The position numbers and the translations under genes are program-made. Source: Escherichia phage ECML-10. From it: DNA of 64,000 nucleotides. Positions 4,031 through 28,941 of this stretch are shown here, in pieces; position 1 is the first letter of the stretch; each line of letters opens with the position of its first letter. Under the pieces are notes generated by a model. The model was given only the letters and a program-made list of their open reading frames with translations. It searched no databases and was not told the origin of the DNA. The stretch lies in sequence record OL631479.1; one strand, written 5' to 3'.

Positions 4031-4377
4031 AGAAGTTGATTGTGTGGCTGGATGATTTGAGAGATCCGTCAAATTATGGACTCCCAGACGCTGTTTGGCT
4101 GAAGAATTCCTCCGAGTTTATGGATTTTATTAACGATAAGGGAAAGCTCTACAGACGCGTTTCTGAGTGGCATATGGACAACGACTTAGGAGAAGTATTC
4201 GAAGGATATGATTGCCTATCCATGTTGGAGGAAAAATTTGTATTCGGTAAGCCTCCAGTGGTTGACAACGTGAAGATTTTCGTACATACTTCTAATCCAT
4301 CAGCGGCTCGTAAATTCATGCTTGCAGCTGACTCGTTTAAAAAGTTTGGAATAGAGATTAAACAAAACATCTACTGA
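4027..4377 (+). CDS. hypothetical protein (117 aa)
   Basis: ATGA start/stop overlap with RNA ligase; WLDDLRDP, HMDNDLG and HTSNP conserved-looking motifs, family not recognised. Confidence 0.55.
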   Translation: MKKLIVWLDDLRDPSNYGLPDAVWLKNSSEFMDFINDKGKLYRRVSEWHMDNDLGEVFEGYDCLSMLEEKFVFGKPPVVDNVKIFVHTSNPSAARKFMLAADSFKKFGIEIKQNIY

Positions 4378-21468: not shown

Positions 21469-22557
21469 ATGGCTGTATTTAATGCTGAGAACACCGCTCA
21501 TAAAACTGGTGACTATCCGCTGTTTCTAGGACAGCAAATGGGTATGTATGACTCTATCAACAAAAAATATCCACAACTGTTTGAACTATACAAAAAACAA
21601 AAAGAGCAAGATTGGGCAGAGGATGAAGTGGATTTGTCGCAATCTATTTCAGATTTTGTAACATGCTCCAAGTCAACTTATGACGTGATGGTGCAGACCT
21701 TGATGTGGCAATGGGAGGCTGATAGCGTTGCGGCAAGATCGATCATCTGCCTCTTTTCACCATTCATCACTAATAGTGAGCTTTTCACTCTATTGATGAA
21801 ACAGTCAGAGATTGAAGTTCTTCACGCACTAACTTACTCAGAGATTGTTAGACAATGCCTCCCCAATGCCCGTGAGATTATAGAAGAGATTCAGGAAAAC
21901 CAAAACGTTCTGAGCAGATCTGGCGTTATTGTCAAATACATGCAAGAGCTCGAGGTTATTGGTGCAAAATACCGACTGGATCCTTCTAGTGTTGAAGAAG
22001 ATGTTGTGCGGAAATGCATTCTTAGAGCGCTTTTTGCACTTTTAGCCCTGGAAAGTATTGAGTTTATTGCAAGTTTTGCATGCACTTTCGCAGTAGCTGA
22101 ACAGGGTATCTTTGTTCAGGTGGCGCAGCTTGTTCAAAAAATCATGCTTGACGAAATGCTACATTCGAAAGGTGATTTTGCCATCATTGATATCCTGCTT
22201 AATGATCCCACATGGGAGAAAAGCTTCCTTGAGATAAAGGGGGAGTTAAAAGAGATTCTTGATGAAGTACGAACCAAAGAGTACGGTTGGAGTGACTATA
22301 TTTTCAGCGAAGGAAGGGCGATTATAGGTCTTAACTCACCGTTGCTTAAAGAATGGGTTGACTATAACTGCTCACCGATTTATGATTACTACGACATCGA
22401 CAAAGACTTTGTGCCGCCAACAAAGGACCCGCTACCGTTTATGCAGGTGTGGATGAAACCTTCATTGCAACAGACGGCGAACCAAGAAATGTCGAACACT
22501 GACTACCGCGTCAACACAACTGTTAACGACGCTGAAGAAGAAATTTGGGAGTTTTAA
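21469..22557 (+). CDS. nrdB: ribonucleotide reductase class Ia small subunit
   Basis: 362 aa directly downstream of nrdA; size and position typical of the radical-generating subunit. Confidence 0.8.
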   Translation: MAVFNAENTAHKTGDYPLFLGQQMGMYDSINKKYPQLFELYKKQKEQDWAEDEVDLSQSISDFVTCSKSTYDVMVQTLMWQWEADSVAARSIICLFSPFITNSELFTLLMKQSEIEVLHALTYSEIVRQCLPNAREIIEEIQENQNVLSRSGVIVKYMQELEVIGAKYRLDPSSVEEDVVRKCILRALFALLALESIEFIASFACTFAVAEQGIFVQVAQLVQKIMLDEMLHSKGDFAIIDILLNDPTWEKSFLEIKGELKEILDEVRTKEYGWSDYIFSEGRAIIGLNSPLLKEWVDYNCSPIYDYYDIDKDFVPPTKDPLPFMQVWMKPSLQQTANQEMSNTDYRVNTTVNDAEEEIWEF

Positions 22558-22560
22558 TAT

Positions 22561-22839
22561 ATGAGCTGCGAAAAATCTTTTTTCATCATCATTTACGGTA
22601 AGGATAACTGCCCACATTGTGTCAGAGCAAAAGAATTTGCAATCAGCAAAGGTCTGCCTTTTGTATATAAGACACTTGGCGAGGGCTACACAAAAGAAGA
22701 GCTTATTGAGAAGTGTAGTCCAATCGTCCCCCGAACGTTGCCGCAGATCTTCTTAGAAAGCGATCTTGACAGTATCCATATAGGCGGTGCCGACGATTTC
22801 ATCTCTTTTGTTAAGAATGGTTTTGGAGAGAAAAAGTGA
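22561..22839 (+). CDS. glutaredoxin-like redoxin
   Basis: CPHC active site, GGADDF motif, 92 aa, between nrdB and nrdD. Confidence 0.7.
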   Translation: MSCEKSFFIIIYGKDNCPHCVRAKEFAISKGLPFVYKTLGEGYTKEELIEKCSPIVPRTLPQIFLESDLDSIHIGGADDFISFVKNGFGEKK

Positions 22840-23681
22840 AAGTTGTAAAACGGGACGGTAGAGAAGAGTTCTATAACGGAATTAAGGTGATCAAGGCGGC
22901 AGAGTCCGCCTTATTTGAGTCTGGACATACTGAAGAAGAAGCTTACCGGATCGCCTGCGAGGTTAATGAAGTTGTTGCTAACAATCTACCAACCGACCAG
23001 TGCACGATCTCTGTAAAAAATATCCATATCCTTGTTGAAGACGCTCTTATGGATATGGGTTTAAAATGTGCAGCCAGAGAATACATCCAGTATAGGCAGA
23101 CAAGAGATAATAACAGAGAGGCAGGTGGAAAACTGCTCGCAGATATTAGTGGCTTCTTGGATCGCACTTGTGATGAATTTACAAAAGAAAACGCAAATAA
23201 GCCTACCAATCATGTACACACTCATCGTGACCTGCTTGCAGGCATCCTTAGCAAACACCTTGCATCAACACAGATCCTGCCAGACCGTGTCTCAGAAGAG
23301 CACAATAAAGGCTTCATCCATGTGCATGATCTTGACTACTTGATCAGTCCGTTAACAAACTGTTGTTTGGTAAATTATCCAGATATGTTGGAAAACGGAT
23401 TCAACATTGGTAACGCCCATGTCAGTAAGCCGAAGTCAATAGGGGTTGCAACAACAATCCTTAGCCAAATCTCTAGTGCGGTAGCTAGTGCTCAATATGG
23501 GGGTCAGACTATGAGCCATATTGATCATTATCTGGCACAGTATGCTGAAGCGACCTATGAGAAGAACCTTAAATTTTGCCAGGAACATTGGTTGCCAGAT
23601 GCTGAGACTGTTGCAATGCAAATGACAGATAAAGACGTATTTGACAGTATGCAGACATTACTTTATCAAATCAACACGTTA
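22836..23681 (+). CDS. nrdD: anaerobic ribonucleotide reductase NrdD, exon 1 (3' boundary approximate)
   Basis: MKVVKRDGREEFYNGIK ATP cone aligns with E. coli NrdD N-terminus; frame stops at 23697 just after conserved NTL. Confidence 0.7.
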
Positions 23682-24483
23682 ACCTCTGTCAACGGTTAAC
23701 AAACTGGCCGTTGTAAAACTCTCCTAACCTCATAAGAGGGGTCGGTAAATCCGGCTAACGGGGAACGCTAAGGCGAAAGCTATGCCAATCCCGTGACTAG
23801 TTCTTACAGGAGTTGGAACGGTTGTAACGACTAACGAAAGGCAGAGATGCTTGACAAACATTTCTGAACCAAGTAGTGTAGGGGTTAGTTGAAATACTAA
23901 CTTCGAAATGGAGAGGCTCTATGAAAAAGATCATTCTTAATGGTGAAGAATCAAACTATGTGATTGATGAGGTTGGAAACGTATACGGAAAACGTGGAAT
24001 GCTACACCCAATATTGTGGGGAGGTTATGGAAAAGGTAACAAGCATGTTAAACGCCGTTATATGTACTCTTTCAACCACAAAGGTAAAAAGATTCGAATC
24101 CAAACCTCAAGGATTGTTGCCTTGTATTGTTTGCCGGATGTCCCAGAAGACCCTGAAAACTGGGAAGTGAATCATAAAGATGGCAATACATTGAATGATC
24201 ATCCGTCTAACCTAGAGTGGGTTTTGCCGGAAGATAATAAGAGACATGCTTTCCGAACAGGACTTTGTCCAGGTAAGTGCTATAGGAAAGTGCAGGCATA
24301 CAAAGGGAAAACCTTGGTGGGTGAATATCCTTCACTCTATGCCTGTGCAAAAGCCTTAAATTTGAACGTAGGTAACGTTCATAGGGCTATCGAAGGAAAT
24401 GCCGAAGGTAAGCATCTCACAATAAAGGGTTATTATCTTATTGAAGTAGAGTAAGAGATAGTCTGGCCCTGTGGAAACACAGG
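23682..24483 (+). mobile_element. probable group I intron interrupting nrdD (boundaries approximate)
   Basis: About 800 nt between two nrdD halves whose products align contiguously with E. coli NrdD; contains a free-standing HNH ORF; exon 1 would end in T and the proposed intron in G. Confidence 0.5.
23921..24454 (+). CDS. intron-encoded HNH homing endonuclease
   Basis: VNHKDGNTLNDHPSNLEWV HNH motif; NUMOD-like YVIDEVGNVYGKRG; SD GGAGAGG. Confidence 0.7.
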   Translation: MKKIILNGEESNYVIDEVGNVYGKRGMLHPILWGGYGKGNKHVKRRYMYSFNHKGKKIRIQTSRIVALYCLPDVPEDPENWEVNHKDGNTLNDHPSNLEWVLPEDNKRHAFRTGLCPGKCYRKVQAYKGKTLVGEYPSLYACAKALNLNVGNVHRAIEGNAEGKHLTIKGYYLIEVE

Positions 24484-25756
24484 GAGGAGACAGCAGACTC
24501 CATTCATCACATTAAGTTTAGGACTGGATACCTCGGTCTTTGGTAGAATGATTACCAAAAACTACTTGAAAGTCCACAAAATGGGTCTTGGTGAAGAACG
24601 TATCACACCTGTGTTCCCTAAAGTGCTGTTCTTCCTAGAAGAGGGTGTCAACATGAACCCTGGAGATCCTAACTATGATTTGAAACGATTAGCTCTGGAA
24701 TGCTCTGCAGAGCGGATTTATCCTGACTTTGTTTCTGTTCCACTAAATCGTAAAGTGACAGGCTCGACAGATGGTAAAGTAACGAGCATGGGTTGCCGGA
24801 GTTTTCTTAGCAAATACAATGACTTGGAAACAGGCGAGGAGAAATACCTTGGTAGATTTAACTTAGGCGTTGTTAGCCTTAACCTGCCAATGATTGCGGC
24901 AAAAGCTAAGACGGAAGGTGTTGATTTCTTTGCCGTTCTTGACGAGTATCTGGATTTGGCATATGAAGCTCACCTTGTAAGGGTTAACCGTCTGAAAGGC
25001 ACCAAAGCAGGGCAGAACCCTATCATGTGGTGTGAAGGCGCTCTTGCTCGCCTGGATCCTGAAGAGAGTATTGATAAACTCTTCTATGACGGGTACGCTT
25101 CCATCAGTATTGGGTATATTGGTGTGTATGAAACCTGTCAGATTTTGGGCAGGGAGGGTGACAAGGCTTTAGCTCTTGGAATACTTCAGCACATGAGAGA
25201 TGCTTGTGAGCGATACAAGAAGGAAAGTAGACTAGCGTTTAGCTTGTACGGCACCCCTTCTGAGAGTCTATGCTATAAAGCTGCAACCTGTCTGGATCGT
25301 GAATATCCTGAAGTGTTGAAGCACGAGCATGAATATCTCACCAACAGTTTCCATCAGCCAGTATGGATCAATAGCTCTCCTTTTGATAAGTGGGAGTATG
25401 AGGAAGGTTTTGCTATGATCTCCTCTGGTGGCAACATCGGATACGTAGAGACACCAAATCTGAAAAACAACTTAGATGCTTTGGAAGCTCTTGTTGATTT
25501 CGGATATAAACACATTATGTATTTTGGTATCAACCAGCCTGTGGATAAATGTCTCAAGTGTGGTTTCTCTGGTGAGTTCAGTGCAACAGCTAAAGGCTTT
25601 GTATGCCCAGAGTGCGGAAACCATGAAGAGGGAACGATCAGCGTAATTCGACGTGTGTCTGGATACCTTTCCAGTCCTAACTCTCGTCCTTACAATAAAG
25701 GTAAGCAAGCGGAAGTTATCGAGCGAGTTAAGCACTACGGAAGTTGTGGTTGCTGA
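24484..25756 (+). CDS. nrdD: anaerobic ribonucleotide reductase NrdD, exon 2 (5' boundary approximate)
   Basis: GLDTSVFGRM...EEGVNMNPGDPNYD aligns with E. coli NrdD; C-terminal Zn ribbon and glycyl-radical motif RVSGYL. Confidence 0.7.
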
Positions 25757-25822
25757 TACTTGACAAAAGCCACAAGGATGTGGCACACTTAGTTCAAAGA
25801 TTAGAGCTAAGAAGGTTCAGCA

Positions 25823-26950
25823 GTGTCCAGAAAACTTACAACAGATGAGTTTATAAAGAGGGCAAAAGCAGTTCATGGAGATAAGTATGATTACTCTAAG
25901 GTTGAGTATGTAAATGCCTGCACCAAGGTTATAATTATCTGCCCATATCATGGAGAATTTGAACAAGCTACCCACCAACACCTTGCAGGACGAGGCTGCC
26001 GGGAATGTGGAAAGCTAAAAATGGCACAAAGCCACATTATACCACATAAGGAGTGGTTGAATGTTATCCAAGAGGTCAATCCTTATGTCGAAGTGATTGG
26101 AGAAATAATAAGCTGCAGAACAAAAGTGCCGTGCCGCTGCAAAATTTGCAGTCATGAATGGTCAGCAATGCCTTATCTTCTTAAACAAGGACATGGGTGC
26201 CCTAGATGCGGCAAGCTAAAATTCGCACAAAGCAGAGCTATAGCCCATACCGAGTGGGTCGAGGACATAACGAAGAAAAATACATATATTGAAATAGTAG
26301 AAAGGGTTAAAAATAGCGATACACCAGTATTGGCACGATGCAAAATTTGTAGTCATGAATGGTTAGCAAGACCATCCCATCTTAAACGAGGGCATGGGTG
26401 CCCTAGATGTAAAGGCAATGCAAAGAGATCCCATGTGGAATGGGTAGGGCATATAAAGGTTGTCAATCCAAGTATTAAAGTGCTTGGAAAAATTAAAAAC
26501 GGCAGTGCAAAAGTATTATGTAGGTGTAAGATTTGTGATTATGAATGGTCTCCTGCTCCTATTAGGCTCAAGCAAGGACATGGGTGCCCTAGATGTGCTA
26601 ACTACGGCTTTTTATCGTACAATCACGGCAAACTTTACATTATGGTTGATGACTTAGAAGTACCAACACTTATGAAGATCGGTATTAGCGTCAGTGTCGA
26701 AGAGAGAAAAGATAGGATATTGAAAAGTGCCAAAAGGGCAGGGGTAGGTATTTATGATCTCTACCTGGCGAAAACGTGGGAAGGATCAACTCAAAACATG
26801 GCAGATTTAGAAAAATCTGTGCATAAGGCCTTCAGCAAGTATAAAATAAACTTCCCTGTAAAATTTGATGGTAGCACAGAATTCTTCTACTACAGGCCTG
26901 AAGTGTTTGACACGGTGGAAGAAGTATACAGGAAGATTTGTGGTAAATGA
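25823..26950 (+). CDS. T5orf172-domain (GIY-YIG superfamily) putative homing endonuclease with four N-terminal Zn-ribbon repeats
   Basis: Four CxxC...GHGCPRC modules; C-terminal KLYIMVDD...LMKIGISVSVEERKDRI resembles the T5orf172 domain; GTG start. Confidence 0.6.
   Translation: MSRKLTTDEFIKRAKAVHGDKYDYSKVEYVNACTKVIIICPYHGEFEQATHQHLAGRGCRECGKLKMAQSHIIPHKEWLNVIQEVNPYVEVIGEIISCRTKVPCRCKICSHEWSAMPYLLKQGHGCPRCGKLKFAQSRAIAHTEWVEDITKKNTYIEIVERVKNSDTPVLARCKICSHEWLARPSHLKRGHGCPRCKGNAKRSHVEWVGHIKVVNPSIKVLGKIKNGSAKVLCRCKICDYEWSPAPIRLKQGHGCPRCANYGFLSYNHGKLYIMVDDLEVPTLMKIGISVSVEERKDRILKSAKRAGVGIYDLYLAKTWEGSTQNMADLEKSVHKAFSKYKINFPVKFDGSTEFFYYRPEVFDTVEEVYRKICGK
26104..26610 (+). repeat. intragenic tandem repeats (about 190-200 nt period) encoding the Zn-ribbon modules
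   Basis: Near-identical stretches GCAAAATTTG(C/T)AGTCATGAATGG and GGACATGGGTGCCCTAGATG recur three times. Confidence 0.6.
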
Positions 26951-27002
26951 TCGTAGAAAGATATGCATATCTTAAATATGCTATTAACTAAGGAGGTTCA
27001 GT

Positions 27003-27119
27003 ATGTCATCGGGTATCTATAAAATCTGCAAGTGCGGTTGTCATTGTAATCTTCGTTGGTGCAAGGCACTGGACGATTTTATTTGGCATTGCCCTAAATG
27101 TGATGCGGAGTATCTATGA
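27003..27119 (+). CDS. Cys-rich 38-aa micro-protein (putative zinc ribbon)
   Basis: SD AAGGAGG before ATG 27003; 8 Cys in 38 aa (CKCGCHC...CPKC); stop overlaps nrdG start (ATGA). Confidence 0.4.
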   Translation: MSSGIYKICKCGCHCNLRWCKALDDFIWHCPKCDAEYL

Positions 27120-27589
27120 ACATTGCCGGATACACAGAAATATCTTACACCGAAGGGCCAGGTATTAGAACTGCCTTATGGGTATCTGGGTGCCCACACG
27201 CCTGCCCTGGTTGCTTTAATCAGGCATTTTGGTCAAAAGATAAAGGAAGAGAGTTCACTGAAGAAGACTTGCAAAAAATCTTGTCAGATTTAGATAACCC
27301 GTCTGTGTGCGGTATCTCTCTGCTGGGTGGAGAACCCTTAGCATACTATAATGAGCCAGATATTATTAACCTGATGGAGAAAATTAAGGAAAAATTTGGT
27401 GACAAGAAAACTATTCTTGTATATACTGGGTTCACATTTGACCATATCTCTAGCGATGTTCTTAAACTGGCTGATATCATCATTGACGGTAAGTATGTAA
27501 AAGATTTACCAACCAAGAAACCGTTCCGAGGTAGCGATAACCAAAGAATGTTTAAAAAAGTATCAGGCGGTTGGGTTCAGGTAGACTAG
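27116..27589 (+). CDS. nrdG: anaerobic ribonucleotide reductase activating protein (radical SAM)
   Basis: Radical-SAM cysteine cluster GCPHACPGC; 157 aa. Confidence 0.85.
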   Translation: MNIAGYTEISYTEGPGIRTALWVSGCPHACPGCFNQAFWSKDKGREFTEEDLQKILSDLDNPSVCGISLLGGEPLAYYNEPDIINLMEKIKEKFGDKKTILVYTGFTFDHISSDVLKLADIIIDGKYVKDLPTKKPFRGSDNQRMFKKVSGGWVQVD

Positions 27590-27592
27590 TTG

Positions 27593-27622
27593 TTGACAAA
27601 GCTTTGTTTAGATAGGTATAAT
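27593..27622 (+). promoter_or_regulatory. sigma70-type promoter (TTGACA-18-TATAAT)
   Basis: -35 at 27593-27598, -10 at 27617-27622. Confidence 0.55.
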
Positions 27623-27653
27623 TATCGTAAAATGAAAGCAGAGGAGGTGCCAA

Positions 27654-27767
27654 ATGGCTAAAAAAGCCTTGAAGAAGGCGTACAAGAAAGAGATTGCGCT
27701 TGAGCTTAAGAAAAAACACAAGCGTGAAAAGAAACATCATGAGGATGAAGAGGGGGTGCAACAGTGA
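27654..27767 (+). CDS. small lysine-rich 37-aa protein
   Basis: SD GAGGAGG before ATG 27654; MAKKALKKAYKKEIALELKKKHKREKKHH; below track size cutoff. Confidence 0.4.
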   Translation: MAKKALKKAYKKEIALELKKKHKREKKHHEDEEGVQQ

Positions 27768-28114
27768 CACAAGAACGTATCGATTTGGCTAATAAGTTTG
27801 TAGATCTCATTTTGCCACGGTTAGTTACTCAACATGCAGACGCTATTTCTACTAATCTTGATGGCTTACGTCTAATGCTAAATCGCACAGATGACCCTCG
27901 TATTCGGGCTGATTTAGAAGCCTCTGCCAACAAACTGGAAAAGTTCTTGCAAGTAGATACGCAAGAAGCCTTACACAAGATTATGGTGGAAGGTTTCTCT
28001 AAAGAATTTACCATTAAAGAGCTTAAGGAGCTGATCCACCAAGAAGAGATGAATATCCGAGTTCAGGCTGTTGCAAGCAGCATGGAGGCGGCTATTGAAA
28101 AACTGTTGCAGTAA
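27764..28114 (+). CDS. hypothetical protein (116 aa)
   Basis: ORF track; GTG start overlapping upstream stop. Confidence 0.5.
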   Translation: MTQERIDLANKFVDLILPRLVTQHADAISTNLDGLRLMLNRTDDPRIRADLEASANKLEKFLQVDTQEALHKIMVEGFSKEFTIKELKELIHQEEMNIRVQAVASSMEAAIEKLLQ

Positions 28115-28152
28115 AAGTACTTGGCACATCTCAATCTGAAAGGAGTCCCAAC

Positions 28153-28941
28153 ATGGGTCGAGCTAAAGAAACAAAACGCATGCGTGATGAAGCTAGAGAG
28201 GCTCGCAAATCTGATCGCCTGCGTAAGGCTGCTGAGAAATTTGCTGACGAACGAGAGCACACCGCTCCAGCTCTCCGACCAATGAATAAAAAGCAGCAAA
28301 AGTATCTTGATTATCTAGGGTCACGTAAGATTATTATTGTAAACGGTGTGTTTGGATCCGGTAAGACATTCATGGCATCTGCATATGCAGGTGATCTTCT
28401 GCGTAAGAATGAGATTGATAAGATCATTGTTGCACGTCCTTATGTACAGACCGGAAAATCAAGCGGATACAAACCGGGAACGTCAATGCAGAAGCTTTGG
28501 CCTTACCTTCGTAGTATGATGGACACGATTTGTCGTCGTGTTGGCAAAGGTGCTTTTGCCGCAATGCTGGGAGACGGTCAGAACAGCCGTATCGAGATTT
28601 GTGAAGTTGAAAGCATTCGTGGTCGTAGTTTCGATGAGCGATGCTTTGTCCTGATTGACGAGGCACAGCAAACTAACCCTGAAGAAATGTTGTCAATTAT
28701 CACAAGGATCTCTGATCAGGCCACCCTTGTAATTATGGGCGATAATAGCCAACGTGACATCCCTGGTAAATCTGGCCTTGCATGGGTGACGGATTTCTTT
28801 ACTCGTCATCCAGATCCTGAGGTTGGAATGATCAGCTTTGATAGTCCAGACGATGTCGTTCGTTCCGGGTTGGGTCGTCAGATTGCACTCAATCTTATTG
28901 AGGATCGTGCAAATCATATTTGGACCCCTGTTTCCGAGTAA
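28153..28941 (+). CDS. phoH: PhoH-like ATPase
   Basis: P-loop GVFGSGKTFMA; 262 aa; SD AAAGGAG. Confidence 0.8.
   Translation: MGRAKETKRMRDEAREARKSDRLRKAAEKFADEREHTAPALRPMNKKQQKYLDYLGSRKIIIVNGVFGSGKTFMASAYAGDLLRKNEIDKIIVARPYVQTGKSSGYKPGTSMQKLWPYLRSMMDTICRRVGKGAFAAMLGDGQNSRIEICEVESIRGRSFDERCFVLIDEAQQTNPEEMLSIITRISDQATLVIMGDNSQRDIPGKSGLAWVTDFFTRHPDPEVGMISFDSPDDVVRSGLGRQIALNLIEDRANHIWTPVSE

What the first reader, a model, noticed from the sequence alone, without database searches (positions are those of the whole stretch)
25823..26950. T5orf172-type endonuclease with four tandem zinc-ribbon repeats inserted between nrdD and nrdG
The N-terminal 280 aa consist of four repeats of a module (...W...I...N.....VIG.I.......CRCKIC.HEW...P..L..GHGCPRC...), with the nucleotide repeats still recognisable (about 190-200 nt period). 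The C-terminus resembles the T5orf172/GIY-YIG-like domain. A free-standing endonuclease between nrd genes is a typical homing-endonuclease location. A 38-aa Cys-rich micro-ORF (27003-27119) with a strong SD follows and overlaps the nrdG start.
Basis: partly seen in the sequence, partly recalled or inferred. Interest (0 to 1): 0.55.

Follow-up and report, generated by a model that had tools for sequence, protein, structure and literature searches.

The report
Zinc-finger homing nuclease beside phage nrdD
This is an ordinary selfish "homing endonuclease" gene: four zinc-finger DNA-binding modules fused to a GIY-YIG-type (T5orf172) nuclease, inserted between two ribonucleotide-reductase genes of an rV5-like E. 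coli phage. The class was described in 2023, so it is a new example rather than a new kind.

Summary

The window is a Vequintavirus (rV5-like). About three quarters of related genomes lack the gene; they carry a conserved 64-nt nrdD/micro-ORF spacer instead. In the window, 1205 bp (25786-26990) replace 22 bp of that spacer. About 26 of 121 relatives carry only 39-53% identical alleles at the same site, built from shuffled sets of two zinc-module types on a shared nuclease domain.

- Module 1 is a different subtype (DUF723-like) from modules 2-4 (DUF4379/CapR-like).
- The 38-aa Cys-rich ORF is a conserved resident gene, not part of the insert.
- This architecture and its preference for RNR genes are already published (Barth et al. 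2023).

New details: a 58-nt recoded tract in nrdD (window 25597-25654) tracks with the endonuclease across phages (22/26 against at most 14/95 records). The window lacks it, and a recombination junction sits at the gene's left edge. Cleavage activity and target site remain untested.

The parts
25823..26950 (+). Free-standing T5orf172-family homing endonuclease gene (375 aa, GTG start)
   Evidence: ORF. Pfam and PHROG hits. A 99% identical 375-aa product is called in public assemblies.
25786..26990 (+). The whole inserted cassette relative to endonuclease-free relatives. These 1205 bp replace 22 bp of the conserved nrdD/micro-ORF spacer.
   Evidence: blastn against EdH4: window 25785 = L001 4238 and window 26991 = L001 4261. 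The empty spacer is conserved in 5 endonuclease-free genomes.
25823..26035 (+). Zinc module 1 (aa 1-71), type A: 'HGDKYDYS...CPxHG...GCxxC', DUF723-like; ligands C40, H43, C59, C62
   Evidence: Weak DUF723 hit, E 0.012, below cutoff. The same module type recurs in alleles of phiWec189, typing phage 14 and navn.
26036..26236 (+). Zinc module 2 (aa 72-138), type B (DUF4379/CapR-like); ligands C106, C109, C126, C129
   Evidence: DUF4379 26.6 bits and CapR 24.5 bits, both above cutoff. It is the reference copy of the DNA repeat.
26237..26428 (+). Zinc module 3 (aa 139-202), type B; ligands C173, C176, C193, C196
   Evidence: DUF4379 37.8 bits, CapR 27.5 bits. Matches PDB 6sga_Fd, a DUF4379 protein, at E 3.4e-4.
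26429..26608 (+). Zinc module 4 (aa 203-262), type B; ligands C235, C238, C255, C258
   Evidence: DUF4379 22.3 bits, just below cutoff when scanned alone. C255 and C258 are invariant in 43 homologues.
26609..26947 (+). T5orf172 / GIY-YIG-superfamily nuclease domain (aa 263-375). Invariant residues: Y272, K285, G287, R295, E330, H334, E353.
25760..25785 (+). Conserved left-junction element: TTGACA plus the hairpin GCCACAAGGATGTGGC (25769-25784). The insertion begins immediately after it.
   Evidence: Identical in endonuclease-free and most endonuclease-carrying genomes. In empty sites it forms TTGACA-N18-CATATT (10/12, with TG) and a hairpin with a T-rich tail. In the window the second hexamer and the tail are replaced.
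25750..25823 (+). Predicted mRNA structure that pairs the endonuclease SD (25809-25815) and the first base of the start codon with the nrdD stop region. A possible translational brake.
   Evidence: MFE -29.9 kcal/mol, z -3.9, 0 of 200 shuffles as stable. Kept in two other alleles by wobble changes only, with no compensatory changes. Inferred, not shown.
25597..25654 (+). nrdD segment encoding FVCPECGNHEEGTIS (second CxxC of the C-terminal zinc site, just before the glycyl-radical motif). The window has the 'standard' version; most endonuclease-carrying relatives have a recoded version (24 of 58 nt differ). Candidate target or immunity tract.
   Evidence: Alignment. Recoded tract found in 36 of 121 records: 22/26 endonuclease-carrying against at most 14/95 endonuclease-free.
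27003..27119 (+). Resident 38-aa Cys-rich gene, translationally coupled to nrdG. It is a neighbour of the cassette, not part of it.
   Evidence: phrog_20137, E 4.6e-30. Present in all 15 loci examined, with or without the endonuclease; 27 extra codon types against 8 extra amino-acid types.

Best explanation
The ORF is a free-standing homing endonuclease gene of the T5orf172 family, part of the GIY-YIG superfamily. It sits in the nrdD/nrdG spacer of an rV5-like coliphage (Vequintavirus).

Proposed mechanism:
1. The N-terminal string of four independently folded zinc modules (one DUF723-like, three DUF4379/CapR-like) binds an extended DNA sequence in genomes that lack the gene.
2. The tethered C-terminal GIY-YIG-type domain cuts nearby.
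3. During mixed infection the break is repaired from the endonuclease-carrying genome. This copies the ~1.2-kb cassette and variable lengths of flank into the empty site.

Shown here: the domain identities, the nuclease fold, conservation of catalytic-type residues, presence/absence at a precise site, several shuffled alleles at that site, and a recombination junction at the gene's edge.

Inferred: nuclease activity, the target, and homing itself. The target is probably within ~200 bp of the insertion. There are two candidates: the conserved hairpin/promoter-like spacer that the insertion itself disrupts, or the nrdD zinc-site-coding tract at 25597-25654. Translation may be damped by an mRNA structure that covers the SD.
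For: Domain content:
- Pfam T5orf172 43.6 bits (cutoff 20), DUF4379 59.7 bits, CapR 47.3 bits; per-module hits. PHROG 559/681 'endonuclease' at E 1e-75 and 1e-68.
- AlphaFold model has mean pLDDT 87 with low-confidence linkers between modules.
- Y272, K285, G287, R295, H334 and E353 are invariant in 43 homologues.

Mobility signature:
- A clean empty site exists in EdH4, FV3, S127, rV5 and V18.
- Most sampled Vequintavirus records are empty. About 26 of 121 have a homologue at the same site, only 39-53% identical.
- Alleles are shuffles of two module types (AAA, AAAA, AAB, ABA, AABA, ABBB) on a nuclease domain conserved at about 80-87% nt (74% in typing phage 14).
- The same allele (2 aa differences; 6 of 8 nt differences synonymous) occurs in three other genomes with different nrdD intron content.
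- Window against those genomes: about 99% identity inside the gene but about 90% in the 400 nt to its left. That left flank is about 99% identical to endonuclease-free EdH4, so an exchange boundary lies at the gene's edge.
- A recoded nrdD tract is linked to the endonuclease: 22/26 against at most 14/95 records.

Literature:
- Barth et al. 2023 (PMC10448857) describe T5orf172 homing endonucleases with repeated CapR/DUF723/DUF4379 zinc fingers, degenerate DNA repeats and domain swapping. 33% of neighbourhoods contain RNR genes, and the genes sit at boundaries of genetic exchange.
- A T5orf172 protein (ICP1 Odn) cleaves DNA in vitro, and mutating the conserved Glu abolishes cleavage (PMC8263062).
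Against: - No cleavage or homing data exist for this protein or any Vequintavirus allele.
- The window genome carries the endonuclease together with the 'standard' nrdD tract. So do Mangalyan, typing phage 14 and phiWec189. That is awkward if the tract is the cleavage site.
- The tract association is a count of records, not corrected for shared ancestry. It could be plain hitch-hiking of donor flank.
- Barth et al. themselves caution that bioinformatics cannot tell an actively homing gene from a domesticated one.
- The SD-sequestering RNA structure has no compensatory support.
Confidence: 0.8

Rival explanations
1. A domesticated endonuclease-derived protein that no longer homes. It could be a sequence-specific repressor of the downstream micro-ORF/nrdG unit (like PLE CapR, or I-TevI autorepression). 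It could also be a weapon against competing phages or satellites (like ICP1 Odn).
For: CapR-type zinc modules act as a transcriptional repressor in PLE, and Odn is a T5orf172 nuclease turned against a satellite. The insertion sits exactly on a promoter-like element with a hairpin upstream of the micro-ORF and nrdG. The window genome tolerates the gene alongside the 'standard' nrdD tract.
Against: The gene is absent from about three quarters of close relatives. Where present it is occupied by very divergent alleles, which is the pattern of a selfish insert rather than a fixed regulator. Catalytic-type residues are invariant. No satellite-derived DNA-binding domain such as RepA_N is present.
Confidence: 0.12
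2. A decaying, inactive remnant of a homing endonuclease that persists only by linkage.
For: Homing endonuclease genes are expected to decay after fixation. The window allele has a private V308 where relatives have Ala. It coexists with an apparently unprotected nrdD tract.
Against: The 375-aa ORF is full length, with all 16 zinc ligands and all invariant nuclease residues intact. Four genomes share it, and 6 of 8 nt differences are synonymous. The site is far from fixed in the genus.
Confidence: 0.06
3. An ordinary conserved phage gene of the nrd operon that happens to contain zinc ribbons, not a mobile element.
For: It is co-oriented with the nrd genes, tightly packed among them, and has no strong promoter of its own.
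Against: Precise presence/absence at a conserved 64-nt spacer. Alleles at the same site are only 39-53% identical, while the flanks are 90-98% identical.
Confidence: 0.02

Closest known systems
T5orf172-family homing endonucleases of vibriophage ICP1 and other phages (Barth, Dunham & Seed 2023, PMC10448857), e.g. ICP1 gp174 and gp165
   Same: N-terminal array of repeated CapR/DUF723/DUF4379 zinc fingers with a C-terminal T5orf172 nuclease. Degenerate repeats are visible in the DNA, and modules are exchanged between alleles. They are free-standing, sit next to essential genes including ribonucleotide reductases, and lie at boundaries of genetic exchange.
   Different: Different host phage lineage (E. 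coli Vequintavirus), and the module order here is A-B-B-B. This particular nrdD/nrdG site and its allele series did not turn up in the two literature searches run. Sequence identity to ICP1 proteins was not measured here.
ICP1 Odn (Gp88), an origin-directed T5orf172 nuclease (PMC8263062)
   Same: T5orf172 nuclease domain with the conserved Arg and Glu. It is the only relative read about here with demonstrated in vitro DNA cleavage and a Glu-to-Ala dead mutant.
   Different: Odn's DNA-binding part is a RepA_N domain taken from a satellite, and it serves as anti-satellite defence. The window protein has zinc-finger modules and no RepA_N.
PLE CapR (PMC8096241)
   Same: Modules 2-4 match the Pfam 'CapR homology domain' PF21817. 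The CapR DNA-binding domain is described as a zinc finger.
   Different: CapR is a domesticated repressor in a satellite. The window protein keeps an apparently intact T5orf172 nuclease domain and shows a mobile-element distribution.
I-TevI and the T4 Seg proteins (GIY-YIG homing endonucleases); T4 MobE between nrdA and nrdB
   Different: Domain order is reversed: the nuclease is C-terminal here and N-terminal in I-TevI. The DNA-binding modules are different (zinc modules instead of I-TevI's zinc-finger linker, minor-groove helix and HTH). The second motif reads KIG, not YIG. There is no sequence-level hit to PF01541, only to T5orf172 and MUG113.

Membership tests
T5orf172 domain (PF10544), GIY-YIG superfamily | Profile match above Pfam's curated gathering score | tested here: met
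   Whole protein 43.6 bits against a cutoff of 20, aa 272-372 covering profile positions 4-100 of 101. The isolated domain scores 31.7 bits.
T5orf172 domain (PF10544), GIY-YIG superfamily | GIY-YIG alpha/beta fold | tested here: met
T5orf172 domain (PF10544), GIY-YIG superfamily | Conserved catalytic-type residues (Tyr of the first motif, Arg, metal-binding Glu) | tested here: met
   Y272 (KLYIM), K285-I-G287, R295, H334 and E353 (STEFF) are invariant in 43 homologues. Their equivalence to I-TevI Y6/R27/E75 and Odn E180 is inferred from motif order, not from a residue-level superposition.
T5orf172 domain (PF10544), GIY-YIG superfamily | Endonuclease activity | not testable with these tools
   Needs purified protein and a cleavage assay.
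Free-standing homing endonuclease gene | Presence/absence polymorphism at one precise site among close relatives, without disrupting host genes | tested here: met
   1205 bp replace 22 bp of a conserved intergenic spacer. About 26 of 121 records are occupied.
Free-standing homing endonuclease gene | Not inside a self-splicing intron or intein | tested here: met
   The only Rfam hit in 22500-28500 is a sub-threshold group I intron match at 24197-24484, inside nrdD. Nothing was found in 25786-26990. The gene is intergenic.
Free-standing homing endonuclease gene | Traces of gene conversion or exchange at its borders | tested here: met
   Identity to genomes with the same allele drops from about 99% inside the gene to about 90% in the 400 nt to its left, where the window instead matches endonuclease-free EdH4 at about 99%. 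A recoded nrdD tract is linked to the endonuclease.
Free-standing homing endonuclease gene | Cleaves the endonuclease-free allele, while its own genome is immune | tested here: inconclusive
The insertion alters the spacer itself, so immunity is possible if the target is there. However, the window keeps the 'standard' nrdD tract that most carriers have recoded.
CapR / DUF4379 / DUF723 zinc-finger DNA-binding modules | Profile matches above gathering score | tested here: met
   Whole protein: DUF4379 59.7 bits (cutoff 24.5, 3 stretches) and CapR 47.3 bits (cutoff 24.2, 3 stretches). Scanned alone, modules 2 and 3 pass, module 4 is just below (22.3), and module 1 gives only a weak DUF723 hit (15.9 against 20.9).
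CapR / DUF4379 / DUF723 zinc-finger DNA-binding modules | Four zinc ligands per module (CxxC/CxxH ... CxxC) | tested here: met
   All 16 positions are present. Most are invariant or at least 90% conserved in 43 homologues.
CapR / DUF4379 / DUF723 zinc-finger DNA-binding modules | Zinc and sequence-specific DNA binding | not testable with these tools
   Needs metal analysis and EMSA, footprinting or SELEX.

The most novel reading that the evidence does not exclude
The Vequintavirus nrdD/nrdG site holds a natural allelic series of modular zinc-finger nucleases: AAA, AAAA, AAB, ABA, AABA and ABBB arrays on one shared nuclease domain, all at one insertion site. Together with the linked 58-nt recoded nrdD tract (25597-25654) acting as the target/immunity determinant, this series could serve to work out a module-by-module DNA-recognition code for CapR/DUF723-type fingers. 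The window phage, which carries the endonuclease with an unprotected tract, would then be a transitional or self-restrained genotype, for example held in check by the SD-sequestering RNA structure.
Probability: 0.25. Interest if true: 0.55.

Novelty: new member of a known kind. Interest (0 to 1): 0.3.

Why it matters
It adds a well-delimited example to a recently defined class of phage homing endonucleases. It has a clean empty site, at least six module arrangements at one locus, and a concrete candidate target tract. That makes the Vequintavirus nrdD/nrdG spacer a convenient system for three experiments: testing whether T5orf172 proteins really home, finding where they cut, and learning how strings of CapR/DUF723 zinc modules read DNA. 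For annotation, the gene (usually 'hypothetical protein' or 'zinc-ribbon domain-containing protein') can be labelled a putative T5orf172/GIY-YIG homing endonuclease. It does not change what is known about the class.

Tried and rejected
- Tandem Repeats Finder found no DNA tandem repeat. The repeats are too diverged and only appear with seed-and-extend.
- A self-tblastn found no paralogue elsewhere in the 64-kb window.
- A PDB sequence search found only a DUF4379 protein, 6sga_Fd, and no nuclease. A fold search was needed for the nuclease domain.
- I first thought polymorphisms in the first ~50 nt of the micro-ORF (e.g. Ser/His/Arg at codon 14) were linked to the endonuclease. Endonuclease-free genomes show the same variants, so I rejected this.
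- I looked for an outside donor of the foreign nrdD 3' end and spacer seen in navn and naam. The full-length version occurs only in endonuclease-carrying Vequintaviruses, and other genera are about 70% identical, so the donor is unknown.
- No sigma-70-like promoter was found directly upstream of the gene in the window.
- The predicted SD-sequestering RNA fold gained no compensatory support from the two other alleles with the same leader type.
- No simple rule links module composition to the nrdD tract type. ABBB and the typing-phage-14-type allele each occur with both tract versions.

Full report
**1. What is there**

The window is part of an rV5-like coliphage (genus Vequintavirus). A 3-kb query around the finding matches 119 phage records at 89-98% identity, almost all named Escherichia phages of Vequintavirinae. 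The local gene order on the + strand is:
- nrdB
- glutaredoxin
- nrdD, interrupted
- the ORF in question
- a 38-aa ORF
- nrdG

The ORF 25823-26950 (GTG start, 375 aa) is preceded by AAGAAGG at 25809-25815. Public assemblies carry a 99% identical product of the same length (P0001).

**2. Check of the observation**

The N-terminal 262 aa divide into four modules: aa 1-71, 72-138, 139-202 and 203-262. They align along their whole length, and each keeps four zinc-ligand positions. The repeats are still visible in the DNA. There are three copies of 134 nt at 201 and 186 nt spacing (68-70% identical), plus a 70-nt pair at 201 nt spacing that joins modules 1 and 2. TRF misses them.

Pfam gives these hits, all above their cutoffs:
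- DUF4379, 'probable treble clef zinc finger': 59.7 bits, 3 stretches
- CapR homology domain: 47.3 bits, 3 stretches
- T5orf172: aa 272-372, 43.6 bits against a cutoff of 20
- MUG113: 31.4 bits

Scanned one at a time, modules 2-4 are DUF4379/CapR-like. Module 1 gives only a weak DUF723 hit. So the array is A-B-B-B rather than four equal repeats.

**3. The nuclease domain**

In an alignment of 43 homologues the invariant residues are G269, Y272, D276, T282, K285, G287, R295, E330, H334 and E353. This gives a 'KLY...KIG...R...H...E' pattern of the T5orf172/GIY-YIG type.

An AlphaFold model built on that alignment is confident (mean pLDDT 87). Confidence drops only in the three inter-module linkers, as expected for beads on a string.

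**4. Evidence that it is an insert**

Phage EdH4 has an intact nrdD followed by a 64-nt spacer and the 38-aa ORF. Window 25785 corresponds to EdH4 locus position 4238, and window 26991 to 4261, so 1205 bp replace 22 bp. The same empty spacer is nearly invariant in FV3, S127, rV5 and V18, although these genomes are only 90-97% identical to the window overall.

In a spread sample of 58 full-length records most have the empty-site span. tblastn finds a homologue at this position in about 26 of 121 Vequintavirus records, at only 39-53% amino-acid identity to the window protein (coordinates cross-checked).

Seven such alleles were extracted. All end in a similar nuclease domain (about 80-87% nt identity to the window, 74% in typing phage 14). 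Their N-terminal parts are different strings of the same two module types:
- phiWec189: AAA
- typing phage 14: AAAA
- navn, naam and nom: AAB
- JEP1: ABA
- Mangalyan: AABA
- window: ABBB

Most alleles also share about 45 nt after the stop codon, so that stretch belongs to the cassette.

**5. Exchange at the borders**

The window's exact allele occurs in three other assemblies (L013-L015). It differs by 2 amino acids (R13K, V308A), and 6 of 8 nt differences are synonymous. These assemblies differ from each other in nrdD intron content.

Against these three, the window has 1-2 mismatches per 200 nt inside the gene but 17-23 per 200 nt in the 400 nt to its left. In that stretch the window is about 99% identical to endonuclease-free EdH4. 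A recombination junction therefore lies at the left edge of the cassette. This is the pattern Barth et al. 2023 describe for nuclease genes.

**6. A linked recoded tract**

Most of the left-flank difference is a 58-nt block in nrdD (window 25597-25654), in which 24 nt differ. It changes FVCPECGNHEEGTIS to FCCPACGCHDEQYIS. This is the second CxxC of the NrdD C-terminal zinc site, just before the RVSGY glycyl-radical motif.

The recoded version is found in 36 of 121 phage records. That is 22 of the 26 endonuclease-carrying records and at most 14 of about 95 endonuclease-free ones. Fisher's exact test gives p about 4e-11, but this counts records and is not corrected for shared ancestry.

Its left end is the same everywhere. 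Its right end varies: about 25654 in nom and L013-15, about 25710 in JEP1, and through the end of nrdD into a foreign spacer in navn and naam.

This fits a cleavage site inside the tract, where repair always converts the tract and sometimes reaches the gene. It equally fits an eroding piece of donor flank. Two allele types (ABBB and the typing-phage-14 type) occur with both tract versions.

The other candidate target is the spacer itself. In empty genomes the insertion point lies directly after a conserved hairpin, GCCACAAGGATGTGGC. That hairpin is part of a TTGACA-N18-CATATT promoter-like site and carries a T-rich tail. Every occupied genome is altered from that point on. I cannot decide between the two candidates with these tools.

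**7. Expression**

No consensus promoter lies directly upstream of the gene in the window. The 101 nt from the nrdD stop region into the ORF start (25750-25850) fold at -29.9 kcal/mol (z -3.9). The fold pairs the SD and the first base of the start codon (25750-25823). Typing phage 14 and JEP1 keep the fold through G-U wobble changes only, with no compensatory pairs. RBS occlusion is a familiar way of restraining T4 endonuclease genes (my own knowledge). Here it is only a prediction.

**8. Comparison with what is known**

Barth, Dunham & Seed (2023, PMC10448857) define this class. In their survey:
- 87% of T5orf172 homing endonucleases carry CapR, DUF723 or DUF4379 zinc fingers, often several per protein.
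- Degenerate repeats are visible in the DNA.
- Recombination occurs between repeats and between alleles.
- 33% of their gene neighbourhoods contain a ribonucleotide reductase.

ICP1 Odn shows that a T5orf172 domain cleaves DNA, and that mutating the conserved Glu kills the activity (PMC8263062).

Neither literature search (T5orf172 with 'homing endonuclease'; Vequintavirus with 'homing endonuclease') turned up a description of this Vequintavirus site. GenBank mostly labels these genes 'hypothetical protein'. The finding is therefore a new member of a known kind.

**9. Verdict**

The gene is an ordinary, apparently intact, free-standing T5orf172/GIY-YIG homing endonuclease with a four-module zinc-finger DNA-binding array.

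The added value of this re-examination is fourfold:
- the exact insert limits;
- the module-shuffled allele series at one site;
- the exchange junction at the gene's edge;
- two explicit, testable candidates for the target.

Interest is modest at 0.3.

Noticed in passing
window 23696-24492 (HNH ORF 23921-24454): nrdD is split by a precise 797-bp insertion relative to the intact nrdD of EdH4. It carries a 177-aa HNH endonuclease ORF (PF13392 29.3 bits; phrog_59). It gives a sub-threshold group I intron match at 24197-24484 (27.7 bits against a gathering score of 50, E 4e-4). Locus L014 has an ORF-less version of about 254 nt at the same site, which also matches Intron_gpI over its whole length (29.3 bits). 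This is probably a group I intron with a homing endonuclease. Splicing is untested.
   Followed up: partly
window 24793/24829; L015 1210-2006; also navn (L004) and JEP1 (L006): A second optional insertion site lies in nrdD. It is empty in the window but holds a 797-bp element with a 169-aa ORF in L015, navn and JEP1 (Intron_gpI 35.3 bits, sub-threshold). As a result nrdD exists in one, two or three pieces in different Vequintaviruses, independently of the T5orf172 gene.
   Followed up: partly
window 27003-27119: The 38-aa ORF MSSGIYKICKCGCHCNLRWCKALDDFIWHCPKCDAEYL is conserved in all 15 loci examined, with or without the endonuclease. All 7 Cys are invariant, and variation is mostly synonymous (27 extra codon types against 8 amino-acid types). 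It is translationally coupled to nrdG (ATGA overlap). It matches phrog_20137 but no Pfam family. It may be a small zinc-binding partner of the anaerobic reductase; its function is unknown.
   Followed up: partly
between window 27119 and 27116 equivalents; rV5 L011 1650-2034, naam L008, Mangalyan L005: rV5, naam, Mangalyan and others carry an extra ~390 bp between the 38-aa ORF and nrdG, with a 78-aa ORF annotated 'putative minor capsid protein'. The window and EdH4 lack it. This is another indel hotspot in the same operon.
   Followed up: no
window 27593-27622: A perfect sigma-70 consensus (TTGACA-18-TATAAT, 12/12) lies just downstream of nrdG. It is at the position where the rV5 record annotates promoter P118.
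   Followed up: no
GenBank records MG0656xx (e.g. MG065646, MG065674): About 19 records named 'Campylobacter phage', with host given as C. jejuni, are 93-97% identical to E. coli rV5-like phages across this region. Their naming or host assignment looks doubtful.
   Followed up: no
L016 (phage mEp021, MH706966.1 7737-9224): The lambdoid-type coliphage mEp021 has 9 tblastn matches to this protein. One is a 495-aa 'zinc-ribbon domain-containing protein' (49% identical over the full query) between its replication protein and helicase genes, next to an HNH endonuclease. Many E. coli chromosomal (prophage) proteins are 45-57% identical. The family is widespread in enterobacterial phages of unrelated types.
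   Followed up: no
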